Positions 9,523 through 12,862 of a stretch of 64,000 nt of DNA are shown here, piece after piece (the first letter of the stretch is position 1; each line of letters begins with the position of its first letter). The DNA comes from an uncultured Chloroflexia bacterium. Its GTDB lineage: Bacteria > Chloroflexota > Limnocylindria > Limnocylindrales > CSP1-4. Both the position numbers and the translations under genes were made by a program. A model generated the notes under the pieces. The model did not search any database. It was not told the DNA's origin and saw only the letters and a program-made list of their open reading frames with translations. The stretch lies in contig CAVRGP010000013.1 of assembly GCA_963720755.1 (NCBI GenBank), forward strand, positions 163,369 through 227,368. Reading direction: 5' to 3'.

Positions 9523-9607
9523 CGGATGGCGCCGGGCTGGCTCCTCGGGCCTGGCCCCCGGGGTCGGCCCGGCGCTCACCACCTGGCGGTCGTTGACGCG
9601 CGCCCGG

Positions 9608-9640
9608 TTAATCCCGATAATCTAACTCGGAATTAGATGC
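9608..9640. promoter_or_regulatory. AT-rich island with inverted repeat ATCTAA-N7-TTAGAT (about 9620..9638), about 60 bp upstream of sufB; candidate operator
   Basis: Read directly: taatcccgataATCTAActcggaaTTAGATg. Stands out in an otherwise >70% GC intergenic region. Confidence 0.4.
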
Positions 9641-9698
9641 GTTCGAGAACGAGCGCCGCGGGGCCCGCCAGCCCCGCCCGATCACGACCGGAGACCTG

Positions 9699-11102
9699 AT
9701 GTCAGCCACTCGCGAGATCGTCACCGACCAGCGCGACCAATTCGCCTTCCACGACGATATCGCCTACCTCGCCCAGACGAAGCGGGGTCTGACGCGGGCC
9801 ACGGTCGAGGAGATCAGTGGCTTCAAGAACGAGCCGGACTGGATGCTCCAGTACCGCCTCCGCGCCTACGAACATTTCCTGAAGCGACCCCTGCCGACCT
9901 GGACCGACGGGCTGGACAAGATCGACTTCGACAAGATCGTCTACTACCGCAAGCCGTCCGAGCGTGAGGAGCGGTCGTGGGATGACGTCCCGGAGCAGAT
10001 CAAGGCGACCTTCGAGAAGCTGGGTATCCCGGAGGCGGAGCGCAAGTTCCTGGCCGGTGTCGGCGCCCAGTACGACAGCGAGGTCGTCTACCACTCGGTC
10101 AAGGAAGAGCTCTCCAAGCTCGGGGTCGTGTTCATGGGCACGGACCAGGCGCTGATCGAGTACCCGGAGATCTTCCGGAAGCACTTCGGCACGGTGGTGC
10201 CGGCCGAGGACAACAAGTTCTCCGCGCTCAATGCCGCGGTCTGGTCGGGCGGCTCGTTCGTGTACGTGCCCAAGGGCGTCGAGGTCCCGCTCCCGTTGCA
10301 GGCGTACTTCCGGATCAACGGCGAGAACACCGGCCAGTTCGAGCGGACGCTGATCGTGGTCGACGAAGGGGCCAAGGTCCACTACATCGAGGGCTGCACC
10401 GCCCCGATCTACGCCACCGAGTCGCTCCATGTCGCCGTCGTCGAGGTCGTCGCCCTGCCGGGTTCCAAGGTCCGGTACACGACCATCCAGAACTGGTCGA
10501 ACGATGTCTACAACCTGGTGACCAAGCGGGCGCACGCGTACGAGAACTCGACGGTCGAATGGATCGACGCCAATACGGGCTCGCGCAAGACGGTGAAGTT
10601 TCCCGCGATCTACCTGCGCGGGGAAGGCGCGACGGCCGACATCATCAGCGTCGCGGTCGCCGGCAAGGGACAACACCAGGACACTGGCGCCAAGGCGATC
10701 CACCTCGCCCCGAACACGCGGTCGCGGATCGTCAGCAAGTCCGTGTCCAAGGACGGTGGCCGAGCGACCTACCGCGGGCATCTCAAGGTGTCGCCGGGGG
10801 CGACCAACGCAGTGGCCAGCGTTCGCTGCGATGCCCTGATGATGGACGACATCAGCCGGAGCGACACCTACCCGTACATCGATATCCAGGAAGACGACAC
10901 CTCGATGACCCACGAGGCGACCGTCGGCAAGGTGAGTGCGGACCAGGTCTTCTACCTGATGAGTCGTGGTCTGACCGAGAACGAGGCGACCAATCTCATC
11001 GTCCAGGGCTTCCTCGAGGTCTTCACCAAGGAACTGCCGATGGAGTACGCCATCGAGTTCAACCGCCTCGTCAAACTCGAGATGGAGGGGTCGCTCGGAT
11101 GA
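9699..11102 (+). CDS. sufB: Fe-S cluster assembly protein SufB
   Basis: 467 aa with a full-length SufB pattern (KRPLPTWTDGLDKIDFD..., GEGATADIISVAVAGKGQHQDTGAK..., C-terminal SufBD beta-helix). Confidence 0.9.
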   Translation: MSATREIVTDQRDQFAFHDDIAYLAQTKRGLTRATVEEISGFKNEPDWMLQYRLRAYEHFLKRPLPTWTDGLDKIDFDKIVYYRKPSEREERSWDDVPEQIKATFEKLGIPEAERKFLAGVGAQYDSEVVYHSVKEELSKLGVVFMGTDQALIEYPEIFRKHFGTVVPAEDNKFSALNAAVWSGGSFVYVPKGVEVPLPLQAYFRINGENTGQFERTLIVVDEGAKVHYIEGCTAPIYATESLHVAVVEVVALPGSKVRYTTIQNWSNDVYNLVTKRAHAYENSTVEWIDANTGSRKTVKFPAIYLRGEGATADIISVAVAGKGQHQDTGAKAIHLAPNTRSRIVSKSVSKDGGRATYRGHLKVSPGATNAVASVRCDALMMDDISRSDTYPYIDIQEDDTSMTHEATVGKVSADQVFYLMSRGLTENEATNLIVQGFLEVFTKELPMEYAIEFNRLVKLEMEGSLG

Positions 11103-12484
11103 CGGTCGCGTCACCGCGGCCTAGATCGGGACGCGCTGCCCACCAGCGGCCGACCGACTTCACCCTCAAGGTCGACGGATCCGATGTCGAGGCCGTCGCA
11201 CCGCTCGACGGTGACCCTGAGTGGCTCCGAGCCGACCGCCGGGCGGCCCATACCGCGTTCGAGGCCCTGCCACCCGAGTCCAACCTCCTGTACACCACGT
11301 ACATCGACCTCCGCACCGCCCAGCTGGCCGACGCGCGGATCACCACATCTGTCCGATCGCAGCCTGCGCCGATCGACCTGCCCGACGGGACCGATGGCCT
11401 TCTCCTCGTCGACGAGGGTGACCTCGTGGGCACTGCCCTCTCGGAGGACGCGCGGTCGGCCGGTGTCGAACTCACCACGATCGCCGACCTGGCCAAGCGT
11501 CGGCCGGAACGGGTGCGCGAGCTCATCGACGGCGGCTCGACGCTCCCGGCAGATGATCGCTTCGCTCAGCTGACCCGGGCCCTCTGGACCCAGGGCCTCG
11601 TGGTGGACGTCCCGGCCGGGGTACGTCTCGCCCGCCCGATCATCGTCCGCTGGAAGGCGGGTGCCAGCGGTCGGGCCCTCCTGACGCGAACCTTCGTGTC
11701 GCTCGGTGACGGCGCAGCGGCAACGATCCTCGAGGAACTCGTCGGCTCGGAGGCGGCTCGGCCGGACAGTGGCCCATCGTTCCTCGCCGGGACGCTCGAG
11801 GTGCGGCTCGGCCGCGACGCGCAGCTATCCCTGGCAAGCCTCCAGGAGTTGCCGGTCACGACCGTCGCCATCCAGCATCGGAGCGCGATCGTCGGTGAGG
11901 CGGCGACCCTCCACTGGGCGCTTGCCCAACTCGGCTCCAGACTCGTTCGCAGCCGGGTCGACAATCGCCTCGAAGGCGACCGCAGCTCGGTCGAGCAGGT
12001 CGAGATCGTGTTCGGCGGTGGCGACCAGCTGTTCGACCTGACGTCCTACACGCACCACCTGGGTCGGGATACGACGGGCAACCTGCTGTCGAAGGGCGCC
12101 CTGCTCGATCGGGCTCGGTCGTTCATGAAGGGCATGATCGTCATCGACCGGTCGGCGGTCGGCACGGACAGCTTCCTCGGTGAATTCGGGATGAACCTCT
12201 CGAAGGCCACTCGCTCGGTCGCGATCCCGAGCCTCGAGATCGACCAGCCCGATTGTCGACGCGCGATGCACGCGAGCTCCGTCGGCCCGATCGACGAGAC
12301 CCAGGTCTTCTACCTCGAGAGCCGGGGGATCCCTCGTGACGAGGCACGCAAGTTCATCGTCCTCGGCTTCCTCGAGCCGGTCGTCGCGCGGGTCCCGGTC
12401 GCCGACGCCCAGGAGCGGCTGCGCGACCTGCTCGAAGCCAGGTGGGACGCCAGCGCCGGTGGCGGGCCCGACGCCGCCGCGTGA
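11099..12484 (+). CDS. sufD: Fe-S cluster assembly protein SufD
   Basis: ATG overlaps the sufB stop (ATGA). In frame with table ORF 10559..12484. SufBD-family C-terminal domain, 461 aa. Confidence 0.8.
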   Translation: MTVASPRPRSGRAAHQRPTDFTLKVDGSDVEAVAPLDGDPEWLRADRRAAHTAFEALPPESNLLYTTYIDLRTAQLADARITTSVRSQPAPIDLPDGTDGLLLVDEGDLVGTALSEDARSAGVELTTIADLAKRRPERVRELIDGGSTLPADDRFAQLTRALWTQGLVVDVPAGVRLARPIIVRWKAGASGRALLTRTFVSLGDGAAATILEELVGSEAARPDSGPSFLAGTLEVRLGRDAQLSLASLQELPVTTVAIQHRSAIVGEAATLHWALAQLGSRLVRSRVDNRLEGDRSSVEQVEIVFGGGDQLFDLTSYTHHLGRDTTGNLLSKGALLDRARSFMKGMIVIDRSAVGTDSFLGEFGMNLSKATRSVAIPSLEIDQPDCRRAMHASSVGPIDETQVFYLESRGIPRDEARKFIVLGFLEPVVARVPVADAQERLRDLLEARWDASAGGGPDAAA

Positions 12485-12816
12485 GACGGATCGACCTGCT
12501 GGGGGTCGACGAGGTCCCCCTCGGCACGATGAAGATGGCCTGGGTGGATGGCACCGACCAGGTCCTCGTGGTCAACTCGAACGGTGATCTGGCCGCCGTG
12601 CAGGGGATCTGCAGCCACGAATACTCGGAGCTCGACCGGGGCTTCCTGACGGCCGGGACCCTCACCTGCGCACTGCACCTGTCGCGGTTCGACCTTGACA
12701 ACGGCGAGCCACTCGACCCTCCGGCCGAGCTCCCGCTGGCCGTCTACGACGTCGTGATCGAGGGCGACCGGATCCTCATCGAGGTCCCGGACGGTCCGCT
12801 CGAAGTCAACGATTGA
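12481..12816 (+). CDS. Rieske [2Fe-2S] ferredoxin (non-heme iron oxygenase ferredoxin-subunit-like), suf-operon associated
   Basis: GTG overlaps the sufD stop (GTGA). CxH...CxxH Rieske ligands (ICSHEYSEL ... CALHLSRF). The same position is occupied by a Rieske protein in Streptomyces-type suf operons. Confidence 0.7.
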   Translation: MRRIDLLGVDEVPLGTMKMAWVDGTDQVLVVNSNGDLAAVQGICSHEYSELDRGFLTAGTLTCALHLSRFDLDNGEPLDPPAELPLAVYDVVIEGDRILIEVPDGPLEVND

Positions 12817-12862
12817 CCAGGGACGCGACGCTACCCGGCGCCCCGACGCGGAGGGTTGACCC

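What the first reader, a model, noticed from the sequence alone, without database searches (positions are those of the whole stretch)
9580..12862. Truncated suf operon (sufB-sufD-Rieske only) preceded by an AT-rich inverted repeat, with no sufR, sufC, sufS or sufU
In most Actinobacteria suf is sufR-sufB-sufD-(Rieske)-sufC-sufS-sufU-sufT. Here the operon stops after the Rieske ferredoxin, because a convergent ornithine cyclodeaminase-family gene follows 46 nt later. Upstream there is a DUF1269 gene rather than sufR. In the 176-bp leader there is a conspicuous AT-rich element with an ATCTAA-N7-TTAGAT inverted repeat that does not match the DtxR/IdeR iron-box consensus I know. Either sufCSU are elsewhere (split operon) or this is a second partial copy. 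The element is a candidate operator for a non-SufR regulator, for example Rrf2-type.
Basis: partly seen in the sequence, partly recalled or inferred. Interest (0 to 1): 0.5.

Follow-up and report, generated by a model that had tools for sequence, protein, structure and literature searches.

The report
Split SUF operon with Rrf2-type operator
This is one piece of an iron-sulfur-cluster assembly (SUF) system that a whole class of Chloroflexota (Limnocylindria, not Actinobacteria) keeps in three separate places, apparently tied together by one conserved repressor-binding site of the well-known Rrf2/IscR kind, so it is tidy but fairly ordinary biology.

Summary
The genes and distances are as described: sufB (9699-11102), sufD (11099-12484) and a Rieske ferredoxin gene (12481-12816) are translationally coupled, with a 176-nt leader and a convergent OCD-family gene 46 nt downstream. 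No sufR, sufC, sufS or sufU lies in the 64 kb.

The organism is a Limnocylindria-class Chloroflexota bacterium, not an actinobacterium. The three-gene unit is not a truncation or a decaying copy. About 55 related MAG species keep it, and dN/dS is 0.006-0.27.

In Limnocylindrales MAGs the missing genes sit elsewhere, as rrf2-sufC-sufS and a nearby sufU cluster.

The conserved element is an overlapping 27-bp inverted repeat, TAATCCCGA-N9-TCGGAATTA (9609-9635). It straddles the -10 box of a TTGACG-17-GATAAT promoter.

The same repeat precedes rrf2 and sufU in relatives. Its layout resembles IscR type-1 and RisR boxes.

Best reading: it is the operator of an Fe-S-sensing Rrf2 (IscR/CymR-like) repressor that coordinates a split SUF system.

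This is a new member of a known kind, of modest interest. Binding, and the presence of rrf2-sufCSU in this exact genome, are inferred, not shown.

The parts
9593..9598 (+). Predicted -35 hexamer TTGACG of the sufB promoter
   Evidence: The consensus scan gives TTGACG-17-GATAAT with 10 of 12 matches. It is the only hit in 9400-13000, against 0.2 expected. TTGAC[GC]-17-GATAAT is present in 56 of 69 unique orthologous leaders. No transcription start has been mapped.
9616..9621 (+). Predicted -10 hexamer GATAAT, lying inside the inverted repeat
   Evidence: The 'TA' that opens the repeat's spacer is invariant across leaders because it belongs to this box.
9609..9635 (.). Conserved 27-bp inverted repeat TAATCCCGA-TAATCTAAC-TCGGAATTA (arms 9609-9617 and 9627-9635). 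Proposed operator of an Rrf2-family (IscR/CymR-like) repressor.
   Evidence: - Unique in the window with up to 3 mismatches (0.01 expected).
- One copy per related locus, always in the sufB leader.
- Arm positions are 90-100% conserved in 69 unique leaders, against 30-50% in the flanks.
- The same repeat lies upstream of rrf2 and of sufU in Limnocylindrales MAGs.
- It also lies upstream of rrf2 in two unrelated contigs.
- Protein binding has not been tested.
9620..9638 (.). It covers the spacer, the right arm and 3 flanking bases of the larger repeat.
   Evidence: It is present and unique in the window, but exact in only 3 of 69 orthologous leaders.
9690..9693 (+). Shine-Dalgarno GGAG, 5 nt before the sufB ATG. 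It is part of the conserved block CGACCGGAGACCnGATG.
   Evidence: Read directly from the sequence. It is conserved in the leader alignment.
9699..11102 (+). sufB (467 aa), the Fe-S cluster scaffold subunit
   Evidence: TIGR01980 scores 697 bits against a cut-off of 346, and PF01458 also hits. Amino-acid identity is 82-99% across the Limnocylindria loci that carry the full gene. dN/dS is 0.006-0.055.
11099..12484 (+). sufD (461 aa). Its start overlaps the sufB stop (ATGA).
   Evidence: PF01458 scores 183 bits. TIGR01981 scores 193.7, below its cut-off of 222. Identity across the class is 51-86%. dN/dS is 0.12-0.27.
12481..12816 (+). Rieske-type [2Fe-2S] ferredoxin (111 aa, GTG start overlapping the sufD stop, GTGA)
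   Evidence: PF00355 scores 49.6 bits. The best NCBIfam matches are dioxygenase ferredoxin subunits, all below cut-off. The CSH-X16-CALH ligands are visible in the translation. The gene lies downstream of sufD in 52 loci. dN/dS is 0.05-0.20.

Best explanation
**Model**
- The window comes from a Limnocylindria-class Chloroflexota genome in which the SUF machinery is split into separate transcription units.
- This locus is the scaffold unit, sufB-sufD-Rieske. A sigma-70-type promoter (TTGACG-17-GATAAT) drives it, and the three genes are translationally coupled.
- A 27-bp inverted repeat (9609-9635) lies across the -10 box and the predicted start site.
- I propose this repeat is the operator of a dimeric, Fe-S-cluster-binding Rrf2-family repressor (IscR/CymR-like).
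- In relatives that regulator is encoded elsewhere, as the first gene of an rrf2-sufC-sufS unit. The same repeat also sits at its own promoter and at the sufU promoter.
- When clusters are plentiful, the holo-repressor would occupy all three operators and block RNA polymerase. When cluster demand rises (iron or sulfur shortage, oxidative damage), it would lose its cluster or its DNA affinity, and the dispersed units would be derepressed together.

**Shown**
- Gene identities, coupling and distances.
- Class-wide conservation of the unit and of the repeat.
- The repeat's position on a predicted promoter.
- Complementary gene content of the two locus types in relatives.
- The same repeat at rrf2 and sufU.

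**Inferred**
- That the Rrf2 protein binds the repeat.
- That it represses.
- That holo/apo switching is the signal.
- That this particular genome carries rrf2-sufCSU.
For: 1. **Taxonomy and synteny.** 55 of the 59 SufD-related loci are Chloroflexota MAGs, mostly Limnocylindria. All of them that reach far enough show sufB-sufD-(x)-Rieske.
2. **Complementary gene content.** The window plus 56 such loci (634 kb) contain no Rrf2, SufC, SufS or SufU. Six rrf2-sufC-sufS(-sufU) loci (83 kb) contain no SufB, SufD or Rieske. Sources name those SufC proteins 'Candidatus Limnocylindrales' or 'Chloroflexota'.
3. **Conservation of the repeat.** Its arms are 90-100% conserved in 69 unique leaders while the flanks drift. 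It is unique in the window.
4. **Promoter overlap.** The predicted promoter scores 10 of 12, and the repeat overlaps its -10 box.
5. **Same repeat at other promoters, in different registers.**
   - At rrf2 it lies just after TTGACG-17-TAGACT.
   - At sufU it lies upstream of a -10-like box.
   - Sites scoring 14 or more of 18 number 45 in 608 kb of sufBD loci, about one per locus, as the exact-pattern search also found.
6. **Independent contigs.** One contig (L076) has the repeat in front of an intact rrf2-sufC-sufB-sufD-sufS operon. Another (L109) has it in front of an rrf2 gene.
7. **The Limnocylindrales regulator.** It passes the Rrf2 superfamily model (118.8 bits against 73.3) and has three Cys spaced C-X10-C-X5-C. 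Its closest solved relative is Thermincola potens IscR, 4CIC, at E = 2.7e-35.
8. **Site architecture agrees with published Rrf2-DNA work.**
   - The related sites at sufU and in L076 have a GAC-N7-GTC core with AT-rich flanks, as for RisR (PMC9973013). The window's own arms read GAT-N7-CTC.
   - C is invariant at -8, and the centre is unconstrained, as in the EcIscR-hya complex (PMC9338935).
Against: - No binding or expression data exist, and the transcription start is only predicted.
- The window's source genome could not be retrieved beyond the window. So rrf2-sufCSU has not been shown in the same genome or MAG as any sufBD-Rieske locus.
- The sufB operator itself matches the E. coli type-1 consensus at only 15 of 25 positions. 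That score alone is not unusual: 181 positions in the window reach it.
- The regulator falls below the NCBIfam equivalog cut-offs for both CymR (133.6 against 195) and IscR (92 against 207.55), so its subfamily and signal are uncertain.
- CymR-type regulators need no cluster, so the 'holo-repressor' step could be wrong.
Confidence: 0.7

Rival explanations
1. The repeat is an operator, but for a regulator other than the Rrf2 protein encoded next to sufC. That could be another winged-helix factor, or an unrelated family with a similar palindrome.
For: No binding data exist. No regulator gene lies next to sufB in any locus. The window encodes other regulators: a DtxR-family protein and an OmpR-type response regulator.
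Against: The repeat sits at the rrf2 promoter itself in four Limnocylindrales MAG lineages (five loci) and in two unrelated contigs, the classic autoregulation signature. Its layout fits structurally characterised Rrf2 sites. The leader has no IdeR box (at least 9 of 19 mismatches) and no SufR box.
Confidence: 0.12
2. The conserved block is only promoter architecture (-35, -10, discriminator, start region). The dyad symmetry is incidental and no dedicated regulator exists.
For: The left arm and spacer overlap the -10 box. The invariant 'TA' of the spacer is explained by the -10 box.
Against: The right arm, downstream of the -10, is as conserved as the left. In the deep clade the -35 is lost but both arms persist (L035-L051). 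The same dyad recurs at the rrf2 and sufU promoters in different registers relative to the -10 and -35 boxes.
Confidence: 0.07
3. The repeat acts as an RNA hairpin in the sufB 5' UTR, as an attenuator, a stability element or a riboregulator.
For: The predicted 74-nt leader RNA folds better than shuffles (z = -3.06).
Against: - The predicted start site falls inside the right arm, so the left arm would not be transcribed.
- At the one strongly variable arm pair (positions 5 and 23), only 13 of 69 leaders keep a Watson-Crick pair, and 32 have C opposite A.
- There is no Rfam match.
- RNAalifold finds no consensus structure in 13 aligned leaders.
Confidence: 0.03
4. This locus is a redundant or decaying partial duplicate. 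A complete sufBCDSU operon with its own sufBD exists elsewhere in the genome.
For: The rest of this genome could not be searched. SufD scores below the TIGR01981 cut-off.
Against: dN/dS is 0.006-0.27 for all three genes. SufB is 82-99% identical across the class. The rrf2-sufC-sufS loci of six relatives carry no sufB or sufD within 7-8 kb. The unit is conserved in about 55 species.
Confidence: 0.05

Closest known systems
[quoted passage not shown]
   Same: It is the closest solved relative of the Limnocylindrales Rrf2 (E = 2.7e-35). PMC9338935 lists it among cluster-binding IscR proteins that sense Fe-S cluster levels. The query Cys align to Ser at two of the three positions and the third falls in an alignment gap, consistent with my recollection that 4CIC is a Cys-to-Ser variant.
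   Different: I recall, but could not read (paper not held), that the T. potens suf genes are contiguous with the regulator gene and that its sites were compared with type-2 boxes. Here the scaffold genes are detached and carry their own operator copy. The protein falls below the IscR equivalog cut-off.
E. coli and Pseudomonas IscR type-1 box (ATASYYGACTRWWWYAGTCRRSTAT), which overlaps the isc promoter
   Same: Both are dyads with YYGA-N9-TCRR spacing that overlap RNA-polymerase recognition elements and allow autoregulation of the regulator gene (PMC3899308). The Limnocylindrales rrf2-promoter sites match at 19-20 of 25 positions, and the sufU sites match the 12-position core at 11-12.
   Different: The sufB site matches at only 15 of 25, because its inner positions are taken by the -10 box. 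The outer flank here is TAAT rather than ATA. It controls suf genes, not isc genes. In E. coli, suf is activated through a type-2 site (PMC9973013 introduction).
RisR of Myxococcus xanthus, an Rrf2 repressor encoded upstream of suf
   Same: The holo-form represses suf by binding a GAC-N7-GTC palindrome with AT-rich flanks that overlaps the promoter. It coordinates more than one Fe-S assembly operon from separate operators (PMC9973013).
   Different: RisR belongs to a different Rrf2 subgroup (IS6), and its half-site is T(t/g)GAC, not AATCCCGA(C). The M. xanthus suf operon is intact.
SufR-controlled suf operons of cyanobacteria and Actinobacteria
   Same: Both place Fe-S-cluster-dependent repression on SUF genes at a promoter-overlapping palindrome.
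   Different: SufR is a DeoR-type protein that binds CAAC-N6-GTTG (PMC8593673). No such box lies in the leader. No sufR gene is in the window or in related loci. The organism is not an actinobacterium.
Streptomyces suf cluster with the Rieske-type ferredoxin Fdx4
   Same: A Rieske-type Cys2His2 [2Fe-2S] ferredoxin of the dioxygenase-ferredoxin type is encoded in the suf cluster and co-regulated with it (PMC12979805).
   Different: In Streptomyces the cluster is contiguous and SufR-controlled. Here the Rieske gene stays with sufBD after sufC, sufS and sufU have gone elsewhere. Orthology between the two Rieske proteins was not tested.
CymR of Bacillus subtilis and Staphylococcus aureus, the Rrf2 master regulator of cysteine metabolism
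   Same: CymR is the best NCBIfam match of the Limnocylindrales Rrf2 (133.6 bits) and the second-best PDB match (2Y75). The proposed regulon includes a sufU-moeB-thiS-cysM-like-JAB cysteine-synthesis cluster.
   Different: The score is below the CymR cut-off of 195. The three Cys have no counterpart in B. subtilis CymR in the 2Y75 alignment (gap). CymR needs CysK, not a cluster, to bind DNA (PMC9338935).

Membership tests
SUF scaffold genes (sufB / sufD) | SufB equivalog model TIGR01980 above its cut-off | tested here: met
   697.4 bits against a cut-off of 346.4.
SUF scaffold genes (sufB / sufD) | SufD equivalog model TIGR01981 above its cut-off | tested here: not met
   193.7 bits against 222. 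The SUFBD_core Pfam domain is clearly present (183 bits against 27), and position and coupling are those of sufD. I file it as a divergent SufD.
SUF scaffold genes (sufB / sufD) | Partner ATPase sufC encoded in the same operon, giving the SufBC2D complex | tested here: not met
   No sufC is in the window or in 56 related loci. In relatives sufC lies in a separate rrf2-sufC-sufS unit.
Rrf2/IscR-type operator (type-1-like box) | Dyad-symmetric site of about 25-27 bp with conserved outer halves, an unconstrained centre and C at -8 from the dyad | tested here: met
   Arms at positions 1-9 and 19-27 are 90-100% conserved. Beyond the -10 'TA', the central 9 bp are poorly conserved. C6 and G22 are invariant in 69 leaders. 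Compare PMC9338935.
Rrf2/IscR-type operator (type-1-like box) | Match to the published type-1 consensus ATASYYGACTRWWWYAGTCRRSTAT | tested here: inconclusive
   The sufB site matches at 15 of 25, which is not rare by itself (181 window positions reach 15). The rrf2 sites match at 19-20 of 25. The sufU sites match the core at 11-12 of 12. Functional P. aeruginosa sites match at 68-76%.
Rrf2/IscR-type operator (type-1-like box) | Overlap with promoter elements, giving a repressor geometry | tested here: met
   The repeat spans the predicted -10 box and the start region. The promoter is predicted only.
Rrf2/IscR-type operator (type-1-like box) | A cognate Rrf2 gene in the same genome, itself preceded by the box (autoregulation) | tested here: inconclusive
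   This holds in Limnocylindrales MAG loci L180-L184, and in L076 and L109. It was not testable for the window's own genome.
Rrf2/IscR-type operator (type-1-like box) | Demonstrated protein binding | not testable with these tools
   This needs EMSA or footprinting.
IscR (equivalog) for the Limnocylindrales regulator | TIGR02010 / NF008110 above cut-off, plus three cluster-ligand Cys | tested here: not met
   92 bits against 207.55, and 77.5 against 275. The superfamily model passes (118.8 against 73.3). Three Cys are present, spaced C-X10-C-X5-C. I therefore call it 'Rrf2-family, IscR/CymR-like', not IscR.
SufR regulon (cyanobacterial / actinobacterial) | CAAC-N6-GTTG box in the suf leader, and a sufR gene adjacent | tested here: not met
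   No box with 1 mismatch or fewer lies in 9523-9698. Window-wide counts equal chance. There is no sufR.
DtxR/IdeR iron box | 19-bp TTAGGTTAGGCTAACCTAA-like site (consensus from my own knowledge) | tested here: not met
   The best match in the leader has 9 of 19 mismatches. The best in the window has 7.

The most novel reading that the evidence does not exclude
The Rieske ferredoxin may be the dedicated electron donor, or a redox partner, of the SufBD scaffold.

- When the SUF genes were dispersed in Limnocylindria, the Rieske gene stayed translationally coupled to sufD. sufC, sufS and sufU went elsewhere.
- This linkage has been kept under purifying selection across a whole class. It survives even where a membrane-protein gene has been inserted between the two genes.
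- A 2021 review states that the electron donor to SufBC2D is unknown (PMC8593673).
- A Rieske ferredoxin encoded in the Streptomyces suf cluster is a competent electron carrier (PMC12979805).
Probability: 0.25. Interest if true: 0.65.

Novelty: new member of a known kind. Interest (0 to 1): 0.3.

Why it matters
- A 2021 review states that how suf is regulated in most Gram-positive-type bacteria lacking SufR is unknown (PMC8593673).
- This locus gives a clean, testable operator-regulator pair for an abundant but uncultured soil and freshwater class.
- It shows how a dispersed assembly system can stay coordinated: each fragment carries a copy of one operator.
- It corrects the taxonomic assumption behind the finding.
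- The persistent sufD-Rieske coupling is a useful comparative-genomic pointer toward the missing reductant of the SUF scaffold.
- None of this overturns current understanding.

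Tried and rejected
- **Metagenome pattern.** The pattern was meant to exclude sufB leaders by forbidding T at the first spacer base. It still matched them on the opposite strand because the site is palindromic. About a third of the 120 loci were sufB leaders, but the rest were informative.
- **Retrieving the window's source contig.** The 305,779-bp contig could not be reached. Exact look-ups of SufD failed twice. 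The Rieske look-up returned only a 1-kb Logan contig. The listing of cluster members gave no accessions.
- **Same-genome proof.** I compared contig lengths across the SufC, SufD and genome-locus lists and found no shared contig. The ENA sample ids of three SufC loci and one SufD locus all differ. So it remains unshown that one MAG carries both loci.
- **Rieske homologue search.** It returned only Limnocylindria orthologues at 82% identity or more, so it says nothing about Rieske genes in suf clusters of other phyla.
- **Rfam.** No match on the leader.
- **Conserved 5' UTR structure.** None was found, although the single sequence folds well.
- **Other operator types.** The IdeR box and the SufR box are both absent.
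- **Papers not held.** The T. potens IscR paper, the EcIscR-hya structure paper and the S. avermitilis SufR paper could not be read.
- **Adjacent regulator.** I looked for a regulator gene or sufC in the variable gaps next to sufBD in relatives. I found only a membrane protein, a Fic protein, a penicillin-acylase-like protein, an FAD-oxidoreductase-like protein, a GGDEF protein and similar, judged from their sequences and not Pfam-checked.

Full report
**What is at the coordinates**

The ORF map and sequence confirm three co-directional, overlapping genes.
- sufB: 9699-11102, 467 aa.
- sufD: 11099-12484, 461 aa, ATGA overlap with sufB.
- Rieske gene: 12481-12816, 111 aa, GTG start, GTGA overlap with sufD.

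Family assignments:
- SufB passes its equivalog model, TIGR01980, at 697 bits against a cut-off of 346.
- SufD has a clear SUFBD_core domain but falls just below TIGR01981 (193.7 against 222).
- The Rieske protein has the CSH...CALH ligands. It resembles dioxygenase-type ferredoxins most.

The leader after a weak DUF1269 gene is 176 nt. A convergent OCD/SbnB-like gene begins 46 nt after the Rieske stop. ATCTAACTCGGAATTAGAT lies at 9620-9638 and is unique in the window.

Pfam scans of about 47 ORFs across the 64 kb found no sufC, sufS, sufU, sufR or Rrf2 gene. The only ABC ATPase is pstB, next to phoU.

**The organism is not an actinobacterium**

A scan of species-representative genomes with SufD returned 59 loci. 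Of these, 55 are Chloroflexota MAGs, mostly labelled Limnocylindria or Limnocylindrales. The four outliers, at 31% identity or with fragmented matches, are labelled Anaerolinea, Anaerolineae, Thermoleophilaceae and Chloroflexia.

**The three-gene unit is the conserved state, not a truncation**

tblastn of the window's proteins against these loci shows sufB-sufD-Rieske wherever the contig allows. The OCD-like and MbfA-like genes usually lie nearby.

In a deeper clade, a 234-aa membrane-protein gene sits between sufD and the Rieske gene. In several loci other genes separate Rieske from OCD. None of these is a suf gene. The upstream neighbour varies and is never a regulator.

All three genes are under purifying selection against four relatives:

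| Gene | dN/dS |
|---|---|
| sufB | 0.006-0.055 |
| sufD | 0.12-0.27 |
| Rieske | 0.05-0.20 |

This rejects pseudogenisation.

**The conserved element in the leader**

I aligned 69 unique sufB leaders, from 38 genome loci, 30 metagenome contigs and the window. They share a block whose flanks drift (30-50% conservation) while two 9-bp arms stay 90-100% conserved: TAATyCCGA-N9-TCrGrATTA. In the window this is 9609-9635.

The repeat is unique in the window with up to 3 mismatches (0.01 expected). It occurs once per related locus.

Counts in the 69 leaders:

| Element | Leaders with it |
|---|---|
| 27-mer repeat | 59 |
| Core of the 27-mer | 64 |

A consensus scan finds a single sigma-70-like promoter, TTGACG (9593)-17-GATAAT (to 9621), with 10 of 12 matches. 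It is present in 56 of 69 leaders. The repeat runs from between the -35 and -10 boxes, across the -10 box, to the predicted start site. That is a repressor geometry. It also explains part of the local AT-richness.

**It is not an RNA element**

- The left arm lies upstream of the predicted start.
- At the one strongly variable arm pair, only 13 of 69 leaders keep a Watson-Crick pair, and 32 place C opposite A.
- Rfam finds nothing.
- Thirteen aligned 5' UTRs give no consensus structure, although the window's own UTR folds well (z = -3.06).

**Where the missing suf genes and the regulator are**

A metagenome scan with the degenerate repeat returned 120 contigs. 38 of the 106 re-examined are further sufB leaders. 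Among high-GC contigs the same repeat also precedes:
- sufU (L082, L095, L136);
- an Rrf2 gene heading an intact rrf2-sufC-sufB-sufD-sufS operon (L076).

L136 also carries the 3' end of an Rrf2 gene followed by sufC and sufS.

The closest database relatives of that SufC are named SufC of 'Candidatus Limnocylindrales' or 'Chloroflexota'. Their contigs, including MAG contigs of 0.3-2.1 Mb, show this arrangement: rrf2-sufC-sufS, then a few kb away sufU-moeB/rhodanese-thiS-PALP-JAB.

NCBIfam confirms SufC, SufS and SufU above their cut-offs.

A systematic tblastn shows the two locus types are complementary.

| Searched DNA | Rrf2 / SufC / SufS / SufU | SufB / SufD / Rieske |
|---|---|---|
| Window + 56 sufBD loci (634 kb) | none | present |
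| Six rrf2-sufC loci (83 kb) | present | none |

**The same operator at all three units**

In the Limnocylindrales rrf2-sufC loci the repeat occurs at two places.
- Immediately after a TTGACG-17-TAGACT promoter upstream of rrf2: [C/T]AATCCCGA-CGAAAyyAC-TCGGATAT.
- About 25-30 nt upstream of the sufU start codon: [C/T]AATCCCGA-C...GG-T[C/A]GGGATT.

Sites scoring 14 or more of 18 are otherwise almost absent. There are 45 in 608 kb of sufBD loci, about one per locus.

The register relative to the -10 and -35 boxes differs between the three promoters. This argues against the dyad being mere promoter sequence.

**What the regulator looks like**

- The roughly 150-aa protein passes the Rrf2 superfamily model.
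- It falls below the equivalog cut-offs for CymR (133.6 against 195) and IscR (92 against 207.55).
- It carries three Cys spaced C-X10-C-X5-C.
- Its closest solved relative is Thermincola potens IscR (4CIC, E = 2.7e-35), followed by B. subtilis CymR.

**Comparison with published sites**

- E. coli holo-IscR binds the type-1 box ATASYYGACTRWWWYAGTCRRSTAT, which overlaps the isc promoter. Functional P. aeruginosa sites match it at 68-76% (PMC3899308).
- The rrf2-promoter sites here match at 19-20 of 25.
- The sufU sites match the SYYGAC...GTCRRS core at 11-12 of 12.
- The sufB site matches at 15 of 25, because its inner positions are occupied by the -10 box.
- M. xanthus RisR, an Rrf2 repressor encoded upstream of suf, binds GAC-N7-GTC flanked by AT-rich DNA (PMC9973013).
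- In the EcIscR-hya structure, Glu43 reads C at -8, the wing Arg59 reads a T at +10, and the central 7 bp make no base contacts (PMC9338935). Here C at -8 is invariant, T/A at +/-10 is conserved in 66 of 69 leaders, and the centre is free apart from the -10 'TA'.
- The SufR box CAAC-N6-GTTG (PMC8593673) is absent from the leader.
- An IdeR-type box is also absent.

**Mechanism and its status**

The best-supported model has three parts:
- An Fe-S-sensing Rrf2 repressor is encoded with sufC-sufS.
- It binds one operator type at three promoters: rrf2-sufCS, the sufU cluster and sufBD-Rieske.
- It thereby co-regulates a dispersed SUF system.

The anatomy, conservation and cross-locus recurrence are shown. 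Binding, the direction of regulation and the holo/apo signal are inferred. The presence of rrf2-sufCSU in this very genome is also inferred, because the source contig beyond the window could not be retrieved. No MAG was caught carrying both loci in the data I could fetch.

**Novelty**

Rrf2 regulators next to suf genes are known and have been recruited several times (PMC9973013). A Rieske ferredoxin in a suf cluster is known from Streptomyces (PMC12979805). This is therefore a new member of a known kind, in an uncultured class.

The most interesting residue is the persistent sufD-Rieske coupling after operon fission. It hints that the Rieske protein serves the scaffold, and the electron donor of that scaffold is reported as unknown (PMC8593673).

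Noticed in passing
window 12863-15093: An OCD/SbnB-like gene (minus strand) and an MbfA-like gene (ferritin-like N-terminus plus VIT1 domain, plus strand) are divergent neighbours. They stay close to sufBD-Rieske in most Limnocylindria loci. This may be an iron-handling neighbourhood. Neither carries the inverted repeat.
   Followed up: partly
L035 7379-8083; also L036, L038, L040, L042-L044, L046, L049-L051: In a deeper Limnocylindria clade a 234-aa polytopic membrane-protein gene is inserted between sufD and the Rieske gene. L044 also has a Fic-domain gene there. The Rieske gene is still kept downstream.
   Followed up: partly
window 9613 and 9631 (repeat positions 5 and 23): The two half-sites are AATCCCGA and AATTCCGA. 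Which side carries which flips between clades: 32 leaders have C/A, 24 have T/G, and only 13 are symmetric. A deliberately asymmetric operator would explain this, but I did not test it.
   Followed up: no
L074, L128, L159, L138, L158, L101, L145, L178, L143, L109: The same repeat class (TAATCCCGAC-N7-GTCGGGATTA) occurs in unrelated metagenome contigs. By sequence inspection the genes downstream look like cysteine synthase, O-acetylhomoserine sulfhydrylase, a 1-Cys peroxiredoxin, FTR1/EfeU iron permeases and an NfuA-like carrier. tblastn also places it upstream of another Rrf2 gene. This suggests a widespread Rrf2 motif that links cysteine, iron and Fe-S genes.
   Followed up: partly
L180 11723-15288; L183 13836-16890; L185 11178-14798: In Limnocylindrales, sufU heads a cluster of moeB/thiF-rhodanese, thiS, a PALP enzyme and a JAB protease. 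From my own knowledge this resembles the CysO/CysM/Mec sulfur-carrier route to cysteine. It appears to lie under the same operator.
   Followed up: partly
window 9628-9698: The predicted sufB 5' UTR folds into GC-rich hairpins (MFE -30.9 kcal/mol, z = -3.06). Relatives also have GC-rich leaders, but these cannot be aligned and give no consensus structure.
   Followed up: partly
window 17676-20876: A cystathionine beta-synthase-like gene (PALP plus CBS domains) and a Cys/Met-metabolism PLP enzyme lie side by side 5 kb downstream. This is a reverse-transsulfuration route to cysteine. No copy of the repeat lies nearby.
   Followed up: no
window 50472-52768: The open frame of a DtxR-family regulator (Fe_dep_repr_C plus FeoA domains) overlaps the open frame of the glutamyl-tRNA synthetase gene by about 400 nt before start-codon trimming. 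No IdeR-type box was found anywhere in the window with fewer than 7 of 19 mismatches.
   Followed up: partly
window 6549-8765 (minus strand): A 738-aa protein joins an N-terminal 4-TMS 'phage holin superfamily IV' domain to a type I phosphodiesterase/nucleotide pyrophosphatase domain. It is conserved upstream of the DUF1269 gene in the closest relatives.
   Followed up: no
window 15748-16848 and 23957-25087: There are two prolipoprotein diacylglyceryl transferase (Lgt) paralogues 7 kb apart. The second is much more divergent (61 bits against 209 bits).
   Followed up: no
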